DNA of 64,000 bases, from the NCBI GenBank assembly GCA_028534125.1, contig CM052816.1:23934001-23998000 (forward strand). Direction: 5' to 3'. This document shows, in pieces, positions 7,663 to 24,198 of this stretch. The translations under genes and the position numbers were made by a program. The DNA is from Lama glama (Eukaryota). Each line of letters starts with the position of its first letter. Within the stretch, counting starts at the first letter, position 1. The notes beneath the pieces are model-generated. The model made no database searches, was not told where the DNA came from, and saw nothing but the letters and a program-made list of their open reading frames with translations.

Positions 7663-7788
7663 ATGAAAATGAGTGCAGGACCAAACCAGGAATCTGTGAA
7701 AATGGGCGGTGCATTAACACTATTGGAAGCTACAGGTGCGAGTGTAATGAAGGATTTCAGTCAAGCTCCTCAGGCACTGAATGCCTTG
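7663..7788 (+). CDS. FBN2: Fibrillin-2 exon 56, cbEGF36
   Basis: ctgaag|AT...CTT G|gtaagt; 126 bp; (D)[41 protein letters not shown]. Confidence 0.96.
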
Positions 7789-9180
7789 GTAAGTTGATAA
7801 ACGAGTATATTTCACTTGGTAAATAAAAACATCTGCTTTACGTGTCATCACAGAAGAGCTCCACATACGTATCCTTGCCTGCTAAATAGACCCCTCAATC
7901 TGAGTAATCCACATACCTCTTCCAAAAGGGGCCATCTATTAAAATGACAGATGTGTACGTGTGTGTGCTGTAGGTACACCTATGCATAATGTAAATAACC
8001 ATCTTCAATAGTCTTTCCAAAATTAAGATTAATTAAGTTCTATGGAAAATTTGATGGAAGTAAAACTTCCATCAGGGAATGATTTAATTCCGAAAGAAAA
8101 TATTTGCTATGTGAGGTAAGCTCTGCTGTGTTAATGATACTAAAGTAAATGCCGCATTTCAAAAATGAAGTGAAAGCCAATTTTTATTTTATGGTACAGA
8201 AAAACATTTTACAAAATATTTTCTTGTGGAAAATATATGTCTGAGACATTATATTTTATTTTAATGCTAAAATGCATACATCATAAACCATTTTTCATTA
8301 ATTATGAGCAGGTGTAAAAGTATGGAGTAGTAAAATTTAAGACTATACTTCAATTTTAAAAATTTAAGCAAACAGAGAAATAGCACTCATCACTTGATTT
8401 GGTGTAAAAAGCAACATGTTTCAACTGTATCAGGTTTTTCTCAGAATGATGTCATTTGCTGCAAATACTAGGACATACTTAGTCAAGAAAATATATTTTG
8501 TTTATTGTTGTCTTTAATCTAGGTCTTTACTAAACCATCAGTCTTTTGGAAACAGAAAAGATAACCAACACAGAAAGTGCACTTTTCTTTTCATATTAAC
8601 AGTTTCATTAAGATGGTTCATAAAACCATATTAAAGATCTCTTTGCCTATTTCCATCAATGAAATCCCTTTATTTATACTATAAAAAATGACTTAGTCCA
8701 ATATTTGAACAGTCTTCTAGATGTAAAAAATTCAAGAGATTAGGTTGAATATCTACCAAGATTATAACATAGTCTAGAATTTGCTTTTTAAAAACAAATA
8801 GTGATACACATTTGCTTCTTTAAAGGAAAATATTTTACTTTGATTTTCCTTTTGTTTGGATTCTACAGGAATTGTAGTTTACTGTTACCTAAATACTGAT
8901 GGAAAAGAAGAAAAACCAAATCTGTTTCTTAAGTGTAGTATCCCTTTTGTCAAATTTAATAAATTGTTTATAGTGAAAGAACACTCTATGAACTTAATCT
9001 CCAACAAAACTTTGTAATAGTTGTCTTAAGCAGTGTGACTGTTCATATGAAAGAATACTTTAAAAAGAAAAAAGTATTGCTAAGAAGGAGAGCATTGATT
9101 ATCATATTTAATTTGAAGATCAAGATAAAAAGTATCAGTTCCATTGCCATTGATGCTTATTAACTACTTTGTCATTTCAG

Positions 9181-9387
9181 ACAATCGGCAGGGACTCTGC
9201 TTTGCAGAGGTACTGCAGACAATGTGTCAAATGGCATCCAGCAGCCGCAATCTTGTCACAAAGTCAGAATGCTGCTGCGATGGGGGGCGAGGCTGGGGTC
9301 ACCAGTGTGAGCTATGCCCACTTCCTGGAACTGCCCAGTACAAAAAGATATGTCCTCACGGCCCAGGGTACACCACTGATGGAAGAG
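9181..9387 (+). CDS. FBN2: Fibrillin-2 exon 57, TB (8-Cys) domain 7
   Basis: tttcag|AC...AGA G|gtaagt; 207 bp; (D)[68 protein letters not shown], with the TB-domain CCC triplet. Confidence 0.97.
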
Positions 9388-10336
9388 GTAAGTAGTGGAA
9401 AAAATTCATGAAAGTTATCAGCACCATGAACTTAATTCAGATTAATTTGAAGGAAACACAGTTATAACAATAACTGAAATATTTGTGTGTATATGTGTTT
9501 GTACATTCTTTTTGCTGATGCTTTAGATTCTTTAAAAGGTGCAATCTTCATGTCAAATCTAAGAGGTGGAATTTATTATTATTCCTGTTTTAACAGGTAG
9601 GAAACTGAAGTACAAAGCTTAGGTAAAAATATGTCATTTTTCCAAGATCCACCCTTTTTAAGGGATGGACCCAGGAATGGGACTTATCTATTGCCTCCAG
9701 AGGCCATGCTGTAACCCCCGAACTAGACTTGCTTTACTTAAATAAAGGCTGCTTATTTCTTTGAGCATGCACAGGAACTCATTCTGTTTGCAACATATTT
9801 ACAGGCCAGCAAGTTTCATAATTGATTAGTGGTTTCCATTATTTTGTACAACCAACTAATATACTAATGTCCTAAAAATGCCATTTTCCTCTATTACTAT
9901 GCAGATTCTTGACCCTGTGCCTGATTACTTTGCTAATGAAACCCTTTCTTCAGAGTCTAATGCAAGTGCGTATTTGTGGTCAATCCATAGGATATTATCT
10001 CAAATTACAAATTAGTTGAACTTCAGAAGGGTAGCTTTCTAGATTCCCCCAAAATAACTCATACTTAGATGGCAGAATTAGTAGACTTCAACAGGGCTTT
10101 CAACATAGCTTTCCTTTTGTTTATCTCTTCGTATCCCTTCAGATTAATTTTTTTTCTCTCCTTTCCATGTTGCACTCGCCTAAATGATAAGAAGGTATAC
10201 CAGCACGATTGTGAATGATAGTTGTTAGTTATCTCATGTCAGTTCCTTAATTTCTCTTAGTTTCTAAACTAGTTTCATCCTTGCAGAGGATATATTAACT
10301 TCTGTTGTTTTCACCTTGGGGTTTTTGGGGGCACAG

Positions 10337-10462
10337 ATATTGACGAATGTAAGGTTATGCCAAATCTCTGCACCAATGGTCAGTGCATTAATACCATGGG
10401 CTCCTTTCGGTGCTTCTGCAAGGTTGGCTACACCACGGACATCAGCGGAACCTCATGCGTAG
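10337..10462 (+). CDS. FBN2: Fibrillin-2 exon 58, cbEGF37
   Basis: gcacag|AT...GTA G|gtaagg; 126 bp; (D)[41 protein letters not shown]. Confidence 0.96.
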
Positions 10463-12081: not shown

Positions 12082-12204
12082 ATCTTGATGAATGTTCACA
12101 GTCCCCAAAACCCTGCAACTTCATCTGCAAGAACACGGAAGGGAGTTACCAGTGCTCGTGTCCACGAGGGTATGTCCTGCAGGAGGACGGAAAGACGTGC
12201 AGAG
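12082..12204 (+). CDS. FBN2: Fibrillin-2 exon 59, cbEGF38
   Basis: acttag|AT...AGA G|gtgagc; 123 bp; (D)[40 protein letters not shown]. Confidence 0.96.
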
Positions 12205-12559
12205 GTGAGCAAAGTCTGGCATTGTGAGCTTCTCTTCTTTCAGATTCAAAATCAGCTCATCAGAGAATGATACCATGTGCTTCACCTTCATTAAAGCACA
12301 TCTTTCTAGTGGTCCCTTTATTATTCAAGGAAAATTCTTCCAAAGGACACATTGTGTTGGAGGAAGTGGAGAGAATGAAAACCCTGGTTACAGTGGTTTT
12401 GCTGCCACAGAAATTTTAAAATAAACAAATAAATTATGATGAGGGAAGAGATTGAAACAACTAAAATAAGATTTCTTGCTCATCAAAGATATCATTTCTG
12501 TAAACTATTACACATTTACTGCAGAAGATTGAAAATGAATTGGTAATTTAAAATTTTTT

Positions 12560-13059
12560 NNNNNNNNNNNNNNNNNNNNNNNNNNNNNNNNNNNNNNNNN
12601 NNNNNNNNNNNNNNNNNNNNNNNNNNNNNNNNNNNNNNNNNNNNNNNNNNNNNNNNNNNNNNNNNNNNNNNNNNNNNNNNNNNNNNNNNNNNNNNNNNNN
12701 NNNNNNNNNNNNNNNNNNNNNNNNNNNNNNNNNNNNNNNNNNNNNNNNNNNNNNNNNNNNNNNNNNNNNNNNNNNNNNNNNNNNNNNNNNNNNNNNNNNN
12801 NNNNNNNNNNNNNNNNNNNNNNNNNNNNNNNNNNNNNNNNNNNNNNNNNNNNNNNNNNNNNNNNNNNNNNNNNNNNNNNNNNNNNNNNNNNNNNNNNNNN
12901 NNNNNNNNNNNNNNNNNNNNNNNNNNNNNNNNNNNNNNNNNNNNNNNNNNNNNNNNNNNNNNNNNNNNNNNNNNNNNNNNNNNNNNNNNNNNNNNNNNNN
13001 NNNNNNNNNNNNNNNNNNNNNNNNNNNNNNNNNNNNNNNNNNNNNNNNNNNNNNNNNNN
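12560..13059. other. Assembly gap (exactly 500 N) flanked by an identical 145-bp overlap
   Basis: 12415-12559 is identical to 13060-13204; the round gap size suggests a scaffolding spacer. Confidence 0.95.
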
Positions 13060-13845
13060 TTTAAAATAAACAAATAAATTATGATGAGGGAAGAGATTGA
13101 AACAACTAAAATAAGATTTCTTGCTCATCAAAGATATCATTTCTGTAAACTATTACACATTTACTGCAGAAGATTGAAAATGAATTGGTAATTTAAAATT
13201 TTTTTCCTAGGAAGTATTAAAAGTAATTATCAAACTAAGTTAGATAATTAAAATACTCCAATACTATACTCATACCTTCAATTTTATAGTAAACCTCATC
13301 AGTATGAAAAATATGGACTGAGGAAATTCCTGCCAAATTAAATTTTTGAAATATGAATTATTCTCTAGAAGATGAAGTTTTGTTTCCAAGAAATACCAAA
13401 AAAAAAAAAGTAGAATAAAATAATAGCAAGCAGTACTATTCTCTTGGATCTACTTAGTGAACCATTAAGGGCCCTCATACTGCATCCTAAATATAACCAT
13501 GTGTGTTCAGATAAAATATGATTAAAGGCTCACTGTTGTTTAGAACATGCTAATGCACATGCCTAGTTTTTTTACGTTAGAAGACACACATGTTAAGAGG
13601 CTTTCAGTCTGTACTATCAAAAACCATGTCCTCATTTAACCCAAAATAAGCTCTAGTTGAAATATACTTTTTCTGACCATTTTTGCCTTTAATACAATGG
13701 TGAATCATGGCATACATTTCCCTAAAATGCTGTTTTCACATCATGAAATTTAGGCTTTCATACTTCACTTTTTACTTCACGTAGTGAAATTTGAGTCATG
13801 TAATAATTGAGACGTGTGACACTCTACCCCTTCGTGCTTTGCTAG

Positions 13846-13974
13846 ACAACAATGAATGCGGGTCTCAGCCTTCACTTTGTGGAGCAAAAGGCATCTGTCA
13901 AAACACCCCAGGAAGTTTCAGCTGTGAGTGCCAAAGGGGGTTCTCTCTTGATGCCACTGGCCTGAACTGTGAAG
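13846..13974 (+). CDS. FBN2: Fibrillin-2 exon 61, cbEGF40
   Basis: tgctag|AC...GAA G|gtgagt; 129 bp; (D)NNECGSQPSLCGAKGICQNTPGSFSCECQRGFSLDATGLNCE. Confidence 0.96.
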
Positions 13975-15646: not shown

Positions 15647-15766
15647 ATGTTGATGAATGTGATGGAAACCATAGGTGCCAGCATGGCTGCCAGAACATCC
15701 TGGGAGGCTATAGGTGTGGTTGCCCTCAAGGGTATATTCAGCATTACCAGTGGAATCAATGTGTTG
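15647..15766 (+). CDS. FBN2: Fibrillin-2 exon 62, cbEGF41
   Basis: ttgcag|AT...GTT G|gtgagc; 120 bp; (D)[39 protein letters not shown]. Confidence 0.96.
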
Positions 15767-19870: not shown

Positions 19871-20248
19871 CTGTCTGAGGTATAGCCTTCTGTTTGAGGT
19901 AGCCTACTGATAATAGAATAGAAGAGTTATTCAGTAGTCACCCTGCAAATAGCTGTCCCTAAAGGCTGTCAGCATATTCAGAAACCTAGTACAAACAGGA
20001 TATAAAAGGGTGGGGCAAGGTTATCTCAAGCTGTAATTTGGCTGGGGTGGGGGTGGCGCGGATTTGTTAGGTTTTGTTTTGCTTTGTTTCAGTGTCATAT
20101 GCTTTGTGAATCAACCATCAGGGTAAACATTTTAAAATATGGTTCTAGAGCCGTTTCCCCTGTTGAATCACAGGTACTTGGAGACGCAAGCTCTTTTTCG
20201 CCTCACTGCCCCTTTTGCAGTGTTGAGTCTCTTTCTTTGTGTTCATAG

Positions 20249-20480
20249 ACGAGAATGAGTGCTCCAATCCGAATGCCTGTGGCTCTGCTTCCTGCTACAA
20301 CACCCTGGGCAGTTACAAGTGCGCCTGCCCCTCGGGGTTCTCCTTTGACCAGTTCTCCAGCGCCTGCCATGACGTGAATGAGTGCTCATCCTCCAAGAAC
20401 CCCTGCAATTACGGCTGCTCCAACACAGAAGGGGGCTACCTCTGCGGCTGCCCGCCTGGGTACTACAGAGTGGGACAGGG
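20249..20480 (+). CDS. FBN2: Fibrillin-2 exon 63, cbEGF42-43
   Basis: tcatag|AC...CAG GG|gtaagg; 232 bp; (D)[77 protein letters not shown]. Confidence 0.97.
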
Positions 20481-21520
20481 GTAAGGCCATCCACCCCCTT
20501 GCACACAGGAAAGTGAGCATGATCCAGCTCAGACTGCGCTCCCTAAGATCAGGCTGCCTGGCCACTTGCGACTGTGGGGAAATGAAAGGGGATTAAAGGC
20601 CCTGAGGCAAGAGCGTTGGTCAGAGTGCTTAGGGTGTGGGAGGAAAAGGCACCAAGTAGGCATGTGGTTTATGTTCAACCTGTGGGACTACCTCCTTTGT
20701 GGTGAGCATAAGACTTGAACTTGTATACAGGTATCACTCTTTTGCCCCTGAAAACGGCTTGAATGGATTCGATCAGATCCCTCAAGGCCAAGGACAAGCA
20801 GATGTTTAAAAATGCTGCAACTCACATGTTGTCAGAGATACCTGGGTCATGAGGTACAAGTGGAAATGGTTCCACCCAGTTCTTCTGTGAATTTTGGCAT
20901 GTGCTAAAAGGCCCAGTGGTCCCTGAGGAGAGTTATCCCTCTCTTTGCTCATCTGGCTTTACGTTGCATGGTGAAGACGTGCCTGGTTGATGTGACACCA
21001 TCTCCACAAAGCTGAGTTCCCTCCAGCTAGTTGCACACTCCCAAGTGCAGCCGCCTCAAGTCCTGTCAGCTGCAACTGAGGTGGTGGCCACGTGCATCCT
21101 TCCAACAAGGCAACCAGTGCTCAACAGCACAGAAGATGGGAACTCAGGAGGAGCAGTGTATGAGTCAGGCACTGAGGGGCATGGACTGTTCTGTCCACCA
21201 TGGGTACATAAAAATGCTTGAGACAAAAGTCTTGGTGTAGACAAGGGTCATTTAGAGCCAACTGATTGACTCTTTCACTAACCAAAATAAGAGTTCCAAA
21301 ATCTCAGGTGTTAAAGCAGAGAGCTTTGTTGTGAACAGTAAACATAGGCTTCAGGCTTAGGATTCAACAGTGCTTCTAGCATTCTCTTGGGAAATTCATA
21401 CTTTGCTTTTACCTTCTTGATTTAACTACGCAGAGTGCTTCAGTCTAATTAGGATTGCAAATTGGGAAAACTTGGGGCTCACTCTTAGAAGAATTTTGCT
21501 GTTCAAAGTAAGAGAAATCA

Positions 21521-21641
21521 GGGGGGTGGGTGTAGCTCAATGGTAGAGTGCATGCTTAGCATACAAAAGGCCCTGGGTTCAATCCCCAGTATTCCCTCTA
21601 AAAATAAATAAGCAAACTCAGCTATCTCCCCCCAAAAAACA
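21521..21641 (+). mobile_element. tRNA-derived SINE, vic-1-like (camelid)
   Basis: A box TAGCTCAATGG at 21533-21543, B box GGTTCAATCCC at 21576-21586, A-rich/C-run tail; TSD CAAAGTAAGAGA at 21504-21515 and 21642-21653. Confidence 0.85.
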
Positions 21642-23823: not shown

Positions 23824-24198
23824 GTTGAACAGATCAGCCTGGAGAGTGTGGACATGGACAGCCCCATGAAAATGAAGTTCAACCTCTCTGGCCTTGGCTC
23901 TAAGGAGCACATCCTAGAACTCATGCCTGCCATCGAGCCGCTCAACAACCACATCCGCTATGTCATCTCCCAGGGGAATGAGGATGGCATCTTCCGTATC
24001 CACCAAAGGAACGGGCTCAGCTACTTGCACACGGCCAAGAGGAAGCTCGTGCCCGGCACATACACACTGGAAATCACTAGCATCCCTCTCTACAAGAAGA
24101 AGGAGCTTAAGAAACTGGAAGATAGCAATGAGGATGACTACCTCCTAGGGGAGCTCGGAGAGGCTCTCAGAATGAGGCTGCAGATTCAACTCTATTAA
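23824..24198 (+). CDS. FBN2: Fibrillin-2 last exon (65), coding part: C-terminal propeptide (placensin)
   Basis: ctccag|GTT GAA CAG...; [14 protein letters not shown]...[17 protein letters not shown], the FBN2-type C-terminus; TAA at 24196-24198. Confidence 0.97.

What the first reader, a model, noticed from the sequence alone, without database searches (positions are those of the whole stretch)
12205..13845. FBN2 exon 60 (cbEGF39) is absent, and the only gap that could hide it looks like a false gap
Seen: the exon ending ...EDGKTCR (12204) is followed by the exon starting DNNECGSQP (13846). No cbEGF-coding exon appears in the sequenced bases between them, so only six cbEGF domains follow TB7. 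Established: fibrillins have seven cbEGFs after TB7; in human FBN2 the intervening domain is, from recall, [39 protein letters not shown]. Seen: the gap is exactly 500 N with identical 145-bp flanks; merging the overlap leaves a 996-bp intron with no room for the exon. Both neighbouring exons are phase 1-1, so loss would be in frame. Inference: either a real lineage- or individual-specific deletion of one cbEGF module from a highly conserved ECM protein, or an assembly collapse.
Basis: partly seen in the sequence, partly recalled or inferred. Interest (0 to 1): 0.8.

Follow-up and report, generated by a model that had tools for sequence, protein, structure and literature searches.

The report
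Missing fibrillin-2 exon is on unplaced contig
The fibrillin-2 exon that seems to be deleted here is intact on a small leftover piece of the same genome assembly that fits exactly into the gap, so the "loss" is an ordinary assembly artefact.

Summary
The exon for cbEGF38 (12082-12204) is followed by the exon for cbEGF40 (13846-13974). Between them lie only intron sequence and a 500-N gap (12560-13059) with identical 145-bp flanks.

The exon is not lost. A search of the window's own assembly with the cbEGF39 peptide of a database FBN2 protein found it at 100% identity on an unplaced 2,273-bp contig, C164714. That contig begins and ends with the same 145 bp as the gap flanks. Its exon is 117 bp, phase 1-1, with AG/GT splice sites, and scores as a calcium-binding EGF domain.

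The gap is therefore real. It hides 1,983 bp, because a 407-bp direct repeat (99.5% identical) flanks the exon and made a loop in the assembly graph. The scaffolder joined the two long contigs with a fixed 500-N spacer and left the small contig out.

Fourteen DNA runs from 7 studies hold 70-76% of the contig's sampled words.

One question stays open. Junction contigs for all four repeat combinations exist, so a heterozygous deletion or duplication allele cannot be excluded without raw reads. The one read-mapping call allowed returned nothing.

Low interest.

The parts
12082..12204 (+). It is 123 bp, phase 1-1, with AG before and GT after.
   Evidence: Pfam EGF_CA E=2.9e-12. 95% identical to P0038 residues 35-76.
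12205..12414 (+). Unique 5' part of the intron after cbEGF38 (called 'a' here), 210 bp.
   Evidence: Its last 54 bp start junction contigs C741164 and C741038.
12415..12559 (+). 145-bp segment X at the end of the left contig. It is the start of repeat copy A, whose remainder is at the start of unplaced contig C164714 (reverse complement).
   Evidence: Exact match to 13060-13204 and to both ends of C164714.
12560..13059 (.). 500-N scaffolding spacer. By contig overlaps the true content is 1,983 bp (reverse complement of C164714, positions 146-2128). This includes the 117-bp cbEGF39 exon at C164714:206-322 (minus strand).
   Evidence: A fixed 500-N spacer is the default of the Hi-C scaffolders 3d-dna and SALSA2 (passage read in PMC9292758).
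13060..13467 (+). Repeat copy B (X plus 263 bp). It is 99.5% identical to the first 407 bp of the reverse-complemented C164714, with one T/G difference right after X and one A more in a poly-A run.
   Evidence: blastn. Junction analysis. Genome search.
13468..13845 (+). Unique 3' part of the intron before cbEGF40.
   Evidence: similarity to C164714 stops at 13467.
13846..13974 (+). It is 129 bp, phase 1-1.
   Evidence: Pfam EGF_CA E=1.2e-9. 100% identical to P0003 residues 1551-1593.

Best explanation
The cbEGF39 exon of FBN2 is present and intact in this animal. It is missing only from the chromosome-scale scaffold.

In the real locus a 407-bp sequence occurs twice in direct orientation. Copy A lies 210 bp after the cbEGF38 exon. 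Copy B lies 60 bp after the cbEGF39 exon. The first 145 bp of the two copies (X) are identical.

In the short-read assembly graph this made a loop: left contig ending in X, a 2,273-bp contig X-D-X carrying the exon, and right contig starting with X. The assembler could not choose a path. A scaffolder then joined the two long contigs with a fixed 500-N spacer and left the 2.3-kb contig and four 253-bp junction contigs unplaced.

Restoring the contig gives:
- an intron of 2,161 bp (355 + 1,806);
- the 117-bp exon;
- an intron of 846 bp (205 + 641);
- the normal seven cbEGFs after the last TB domain.

Shown: the exon, the overlaps, the repeat and the junction contigs. Inferred: the identity of the assembler and scaffolder, and that both haplotypes carry one copy of D.
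For: 1. A search of the window's own 2.35-Gb assembly (1,072,352 contigs) with the 39-aa cbEGF39 stretch of P0038 gave 4 matches at E<=1e-5. These were C164714:207-323 (minus) at 100%, the FBN1 paralogue on C8 at 92%, the FBN3 paralogue on C11 at 74%, and one unrelated EGF at 46%.
2. C164714 is 2,273 bp. X sits at its positions 1-145 and 2129-2273 at 100% identity.
3. The first 407 bp of its reverse complement match window 13060-13467 at 99.5%.
4. The exon on it has an AG acceptor, a GT donor, 117 bp and phase 1-1. It translates to a full cbEGF and hits Pfam EGF_CA at E=1.1e-11, 45.1 bits against a cutoff of 27.
5. Genome-wide, X and its neighbours occur only in C1 (the window), C164714 and four 253-bp contigs. 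Each of the four is 54 bp + X + 54 bp, that is, two 199-mers overlapping by 145. Together they link every left context (a, D-end) to every right context (D-start, R). This is the signature of an unresolved two-in, two-out repeat in a K=200 graph.
6. 500 Ns is a fixed default spacer of 3d-dna and SALSA2, not a size estimate (passage in PMC9292758).
7. Fourteen runs marked DNA or unknown, from 7 studies and 4 coded organisms, hold 0.70-0.76 of the contig's sampled words. A genome without D could hold only the repeat part, about 24% of the contig.
8. Missing exons were among the most frequent types of false gene loss in older assemblies (passages in PMC9516821).
Against: 1. No read-level evidence was obtained. 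The only read-laying run returned nothing. Junction support, depth over D and phasing across X are therefore untested.
2. Junction contigs of the recombinant types also exist: a-X-T (C741038), which is what a deletion allele would give, and D-end-X-G (C744569), which is what a duplication allele would give. I attribute them to graph construction across a 145-bp repeat (pair closure or overlap joining, from recall). That attribution is an inference.
3. No transcript of this species joining the three exons was seen. P0038 comes from another organism; it differs at the last residue of both cbEGF37 and cbEGF38.
4. The best run shares are 0.76, not 1.0, so none is shown to be the source sample.
Confidence: 0.87

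Rival explanations
1. The animal, or the cell population sequenced, carries a copy-number variant alongside the intact allele. Unequal homologous recombination between the two 407-bp direct repeats, with the crossover inside X, would produce an allele lacking D (an in-frame loss of cbEGF39). It could also produce a reciprocal allele with D twice (an in-frame duplication of cbEGF39).
For: Near-identical (99.5%) direct repeats flank the exon. Junction contigs of exactly the expected recombinant types exist: C741038 = a-X-T and C744569 = D-end-X-G. In the long contigs, G is joined to the D side and T to the R side.
Against: Both reciprocal products in one diploid would need a deletion/duplication compound heterozygote or mosaicism. 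A deletion alone leaves C744569 unexplained, and a duplication alone leaves C741038 unexplained. The four-way set is also what a graph builder produces at a repeat shorter than its K (recalled, not tested). From general knowledge of fibrillinopathies (recalled), in-frame loss of a cbEGF from a fibrillin is usually dominant-pathogenic. That makes it an unlikely genotype for a reference animal. No depth or read data are available.
Confidence: 0.08
2. The T/G site directly after X is polymorphic in both repeat copies, for example through gene conversion between them. All four junction contigs would then be real sequences, with D present once on both haplotypes.
For: This explains all four junction contigs with normal copy number. 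The repeats are 99.5% identical, which fits ongoing homogenisation.
Against: It needs two heterozygous sites with swapped alleles. No extra contigs carry the alternative linkage further right. However, the next difference lies about 203 bp away, beyond the reach of a 200-mer.
Confidence: 0.03
3. The exon is truly deleted from FBN2 on both haplotypes. On this reading C164714 is a stray piece: a paralogous or pseudogene copy elsewhere, or contamination.
For: Only that the scaffold lacks the exon and that the flanks overlap.
Against: Both ends of C164714 carry 145 bp identical to the FBN2 gap flanks, and 407 bp are 99.5% identical to the right flank. No other locus in the assembly holds these sequences. 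The exon is 100% identical to FBN2 cbEGF39, against 92% for FBN1 and 74% for FBN3. Its splice sites are intact. A haplotype containing the 407|D-start and D-end|X junctions must contain the repeat twice around D.
Confidence: 0.01

Closest known systems
False exon loss in short-read, Hi-C-scaffolded assemblies (the 'missing exons' class of false gene losses, Genome Biol 2022, PMC9516821; passages read)
   Same: An exon of a conserved gene is absent from the placed sequence at a gap caused by a repeat. The sequence exists in the data.
   Different: Here the missing piece can be named exactly: an unplaced contig of the same assembly with exact overlaps to both gap flanks. The cause is a low-copy local 407-bp direct repeat. 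That paper stresses GC-rich sequence and high-copy repeats instead.
Fixed-length scaffolding gaps of Hi-C scaffolders (500 Ns by default in 3d-dna and SALSA2; Mol Ecol 2021, PMC9292758; passage read)
   Same: The gap is exactly 500 N between two long contigs, and many small contigs are left unplaced (1,072,352 contigs in all).
   Different: Which scaffolder and assembler made this assembly is not known from any call. K=200 is inferred from the 199-bp overlaps and the 253-bp junction contigs.
Fibrillin C-terminal array of seven cbEGF domains after the last TB domain
   Same: With C164714 restored, the locus encodes cbEGF37 to cbEGF43 in the same order as P0038. In 48 of the 109 database hits, cbEGF38 is followed by a cbEGF39-type domain.
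   Different: Nothing differs once the contig is restored. Only proteins of up to 2000 residues were searched, so full-length fibrillins were not among the hits.
Repeat-mediated (NAHR) intragenic exon deletions and duplications
   Same: Near-identical direct repeats flank a phase-symmetric exon.
   Different: No deletion or duplication allele is demonstrated here. Only short graph edges of ambiguous origin point to one.

Membership tests
Assembly artefact: exon on an unplaced contig that belongs in a scaffold gap | The 'missing' sequence exists elsewhere in the same assembly | tested here: met
   C164714:207-323 (minus), 100% identity over 39 of 39 residues, E=2.9e-22.
Assembly artefact: exon on an unplaced contig that belongs in a scaffold gap | Both ends of the unplaced contig overlap the two gap flanks | tested here: met
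   X (145 bp, 100%) sits at both contig ends and at both gap flanks. 407 bp are 99.5% identical to the right flank. Junction contigs with 199-bp overlaps link all the pieces.
Assembly artefact: exon on an unplaced contig that belongs in a scaffold gap | The gap length is a placeholder, not a measurement | tested here: met
   The gap is exactly 500 N. 500 Ns is the default of 3d-dna and SALSA2 (PMC9292758 passage). The tool actually used for this assembly is unknown.
Assembly artefact: exon on an unplaced contig that belongs in a scaffold gap | Reads of the source sample span flank-contig-flank at normal depth | not testable with these tools
All runs offered are kept as k=31 contigs, which cannot bridge a 145-bp repeat.
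Fibrillin-2 cbEGF39 exon | Calcium-binding EGF domain with six cysteines and the N-terminal D-x-D/N-E-C motif | tested here: met
   Translation. Pfam EGF_CA 45.1 bits (cutoff 27), E=1.1e-11.
Fibrillin-2 cbEGF39 exon | Orthologous to FBN2 rather than FBN1 or FBN3 | tested here: met
   100% identity to the FBN2-type P0038 stretch, against 92% for the C8 (FBN1-like) exon and 74% for the C11 (FBN3-like) exon. The contig's flanks are identical to the FBN2 introns.
Fibrillin-2 cbEGF39 exon | Usable exon: canonical splice sites and phase 1-1 matching its neighbours | tested here: met
   AG|AC...ATTG|GT, 117 bp. The neighbouring exons are phase 1-1.
Fibrillin-2 cbEGF39 exon | Included in mRNA of this species | not tested
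No transcript-derived protein of this species was among the hits.
NAHR exon deletion or duplication allele | Direct repeats of high identity flank the segment | tested here: met
   407 bp, one mismatch and one 1-bp indel.
NAHR exon deletion or duplication allele | Recombinant junction supported by reads, with altered depth over the segment | tested here: inconclusive
   Recombinant-type 253-bp contigs exist for both reciprocal products. No read or depth data.

The most novel reading that the evidence does not exclude
The 407-bp direct repeats around the cbEGF39 exon are an active recombination substrate. On this reading the sequenced animal, or its cultured cells, carries an FBN2 allele with the cbEGF39 module deleted in frame, a reciprocal allele with it duplicated, or both. 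The two recombinant-type junction contigs (a-X-T and D-end-X-G) would be their trace. That would be a naturally occurring copy-number polymorphism of a single cbEGF module in a fibrillin.
Probability: 0.07. Interest if true: 0.5.

Novelty: not a real feature. Interest (0 to 1): 0.08.

Why it matters
Taken at face value, the scaffold would yield a fibrillin-2 gene model lacking one calcium-binding EGF module. That could be misread as a lineage-specific domain loss in a highly conserved matrix protein.

The exon sits on an unplaced contig that fits the gap exactly, which removes that claim. It also gives a concrete repair for the locus: insert the reverse complement of C164714 between 12559 and 13060, with the X overlaps merged.

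There is a practical lesson for this assembly. Identical flanks at a 500-N gap mark an unresolved short repeat with a possible missing loop. They do not mark a gap that can simply be closed.

The only biologically interesting remainder is the young 407-bp repeat pair around a phase-symmetric exon. It could mediate deletion or duplication of the module.

Tried and rejected
There is therefore no depth, junction or splice evidence.
2. Survey of other gaps, to see whether identical flanks are a general trait of this assembly. The 100 kb directly upstream of the window (C1:23834001-23934000) holds no gap at all, so no base rate was obtained.
3. Contig-length check. Five sampled contigs measured 209, 218, 245, 809 and 806 bp. 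This fits many tiny graph edges, but contigs are not sorted by length, so no count could be derived.
4. Bat gene model P0003 (Cnephaeus nilssonii, 1892 aa). It also runs from cbEGF38 straight into cbEGF40. I considered a shared real loss and rejected it as evidence. That model lacks 5 of the 11 cbEGFs compared (32, 33, 35, 36 and 39), so it is simply gappy. Models P0030, P0005, P0039 and P0022 skip other sets of domains.
5. A search for a named full-length FBN2 of the same species. Both protein searches were limited to proteins of at most 2000 residues, so full-length fibrillins could not appear. The nearest C-terminal exon match was 98% (P0003).
6. Earlier notes of this scan. Three look-ups by place, by words and by sequence returned nothing.
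7. Literature on scaffolder behaviour. PMC13085270 had no relevant passage. That 3D-DNA by default ignores small input contigs, and that DISCOVAR-type assemblers use K=200 and enumerate pair closures, is recalled and comes from no call.
8. The rest of the window after FBN2 (24.2-64 kb). There are 16 stop-to-stop ORFs of 110 aa or more and none looks like a gene. I did not search them against Pfam.

Full report
**Observation**

The window carries the 3' part of a fibrillin-2 gene on the + strand. A six-frame scan for EGF-type cysteine spacing found cbEGF-coding stretches at:
- 339-461
- 1032-1136
- 2015-2122
- 2579-2695
- 7674-7784
- 10348-10458
- 12093-12200
- 13857-13970
- 15658-15762
- 20260-20367

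. tblastn with two database fibrillin-2 proteins added the TB domain (9180-9425), a single open stretch holding cbEGF42 and cbEGF43 (20245-20481), and the C-terminal exon (23824-24195).

The exon ending ...EDGKTCR is 12082-12204: AG before it, G|GT after it, phase 1-1. The next exon, DNNECGSQP..., is 13846-13974. Between them lie 355 bp of intron, exactly 500 N (12560-13059) and 786 bp of intron. The last 145 bases before the gap are identical to the first 145 after it. No cbEGF39-type exon is anywhere in the window.

**Where the exon is**

The window is G000:C1:23934001-23998000 in an assembly of 2.35 Gb and 1,072,352 contigs.

A database search with the cbEGF38 exon returned P0038. This is a 457-aa transcript-derived FBN2 C-terminus from an unnamed Logan record. 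It has the full series cbEGF37 to cbEGF43.

Its 39-residue cbEGF39 stretch was searched against the window's own assembly and gave four matches at E<=1e-5:

| Place | Identity | Reading |
|---|---|---|
| Unplaced contig C164714:207-323 (minus) | 100% | the missing FBN2 exon |
| C8 | 92% | FBN1-like paralogue; its cbEGF38 exon lies about 2.6 kb away |
| C11 | 74% | FBN3-like paralogue |
| C3 | 46% | unrelated EGF |

So the method finds in-place exons for the paralogues, and for FBN2 it finds an off-scaffold exon.

**How the contig fits**

C164714 is 2,273 bp. I call its reverse complement M. M starts with the 145-bp segment X (positions 1-145) and ends with X (2129-2273), both at 100% identity to the gap flanks.

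M 1-407 matches window 13060-13467 at 99.5%. There is one mismatch, G in M against T in the window, directly after X. There is also one base fewer in a poly-A run. Similarity stops sharply at M 407 / window 13467.

The exon lies at M 1952-2068. It is preceded by ...TTTCAG and followed by GTAAGA. It is 117 bp and phase 1-1. It translates to a complete cbEGF that hits Pfam EGF_CA at 45.1 bits, E=1.1e-11. M 785-1620 is an interspersed repeat.

Genome-wide, X and its neighbouring sequences occur only in C1, C164714 and four 253-bp contigs. Each small contig is 54 bp + X + 54 bp. Between them they join both left contexts to both right contexts:

| Contig | Left context | Right context |
|---|---|---|
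| C741164 | 'a' (window 12361-12414) | start of D with G |
| C741038 | 'a' | right flank with T |
| C744805 | end of D | right flank with T |
| C744569 | end of D | start of D with G |

A length of 253 equals two 199-mers overlapping by 145. The pieces therefore behave as edges of a K=200 graph around an unresolved two-in, two-out node.

**Reconstruction**

Four junctions each lie inside longer assembled contigs: a|X, D-end|X, repeat|D-start and repeat|unique sequence after 13467. Any linear haplotype that contains D must therefore carry the repeat on both sides of it.

The simplest path is left contig, X, D, X, right contig. It gives:
- an intron of 2,161 bp after cbEGF38 (355 bp in the window plus M 146-1951);
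- the 117-bp exon;
- an intron of 846 bp (M 2069-2273 plus window 13205-13845).

The gap therefore stands for 1,983 bp, not 500 and not zero. The identical flanks are two real copies of X rather than one stretch written twice.

A fixed 500-N spacer is the default of the Hi-C scaffolders 3d-dna and SALSA2 (passage in PMC9292758). That such pipelines leave small contigs unplaced is my recollection. It is consistent with more than a million contigs here and with sampled contigs of 209-245 bp.

The 100 kb upstream of the window has no gap. So this break is specific to the repeat and is not a sign of general fragmentation.

**Independent presence**

Fourteen runs marked DNA or unknown, from 7 studies and 4 coded organisms, hold 0.70-0.76 of the sampled 31-mers of C164714. 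The repeat parts make up only about a quarter of the contig, so these shares require D itself. This indicates that the segment is ordinary in this species group. It is not proof for the source animal, because none of the runs is shown to be its source and none was laid.

**What remains open**

The single read-laying run returned nothing. I therefore have no depth, no junction-spanning reads and no splice junctions.

Two of the four junction contigs are of recombinant type:
- a-X-T is what a deletion allele would give.
- D-end-X-G is what a duplication allele would give.

In the long contigs, G is joined to the D side and T to the right flank. Three readings explain all four junctions:
- Graph construction across a 145-bp repeat that is shorter than K. 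I think this most likely. It rests on recalled behaviour of pair-closure or overlap-joining steps.
- The T/G site being polymorphic in both copies.
- A deletion/duplication compound heterozygote or mosaic.

A deletion alone or a duplication alone explains only three of the four. I put about 8% on a real copy-number allele being present besides the intact one.

**A coincidence checked**

The bat gene model P0003 also runs from cbEGF38 directly into cbEGF40. Compared with the window's exons, it lacks 5 of 11 cbEGFs (32, 33, 35, 36 and 39). It is a gappy prediction and carries no weight.

The 109 hits were all at most 2000 aa by the tool's length limit. Among them:
- 48 have cbEGF38 followed by a cbEGF39-type domain. 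Forty-four were classed directly. Four more, among the 10 first classed as 'other', carry it after an insertion or with a variant (P0009, P0012, P0058, P0064).
- 1 goes directly to cbEGF40 (P0003).
- 4 of the 'other' class jump further on (P0005, P0030, P0039, P0022).
- 2 of the 'other' class are P0026, which reads through unrelated residues and resumes with a DNNEC motif, and P0017, an octopus fibrillin-2-like protein that continues with a cysteine-rich stretch which was not classified.
- 35 read into the intron.
- 17 end there.
- 2 cover cbEGF38 only partly.

**Comparison with what is known**

This is the 'missing exon' type of false gene loss described for older assemblies. In that study 26-60% of genes carried some false loss, and missing exons were among the most frequent types (passages in PMC9516821).

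The special points here are two. The missing piece can be identified exactly. The cause is a young, local, low-copy 407-bp direct repeat rather than GC content or a high-copy element.

**Verdict**

The claimed absence of the exon is not a real feature of the genome. The claim that the gap is false is wrong. Interest is low. The only remainder worth a look is whether the repeat pair mediates copy-number variation of the cbEGF39 module.

Noticed in passing
L021 (C164714) positions 654-1489 (= 785-1620 of its reverse complement), in the intron upstream of the cbEGF39 exon: An interspersed repeat of about 835 bp. The genome search gave 1,049 first-look candidates. Of the 40 scored, 39 were copies elsewhere at 75-84% identity on many chromosomes. 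Its family was not identified.
   Followed up: no
window 21526-21597 (+): Rfam tRNA match at 35.2 bits (gathering score 29), E=0.0012, in an FBN2 intron. ARAGORN calls no tRNA anywhere in the window. It is probably a tRNA-derived SINE remnant or a chance match.
   Followed up: partly
window 20245-20481 (+): cbEGF42 and cbEGF43 are encoded in one uninterrupted open stretch. P0038 residues 198-276 align at 98.7% without a break. This differs from the one-domain-per-exon pattern of the neighbouring cbEGFs.
   Followed up: no
window 24200-64000: No convincing coding ORF lies downstream of the FBN2 3' end. There are 16 stop-to-stop ORFs of 110 aa or more, all low-complexity-looking. GC rises to 0.46-0.50 around 40-44 kb and 50-52 kb, possibly CpG-rich intergenic elements.
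   Followed up: no
protein P0003 (Cnephaeus nilssonii 'Fibrillin-2', 1892 aa): This public gene model lacks cbEGF32, 33, 35, 36 and 39 relative to the window's exons. Its C-terminal exon is the closest named match to the window, at 98%. It shows how often fibrillin models drop single cbEGF exons.
   Followed up: partly
G000:C1050131 (250385-250504 minus and 1416660-1416779 plus; also 239750-239866 / 1427298-1427414 and 238207-238332 / 1428832-1428957): Three EGF-coding matches occur as mirror-image pairs with identical scores on one unplaced contig. This suggests a large inverted duplication or a palindromic assembly artefact in that contig.
   Followed up: no
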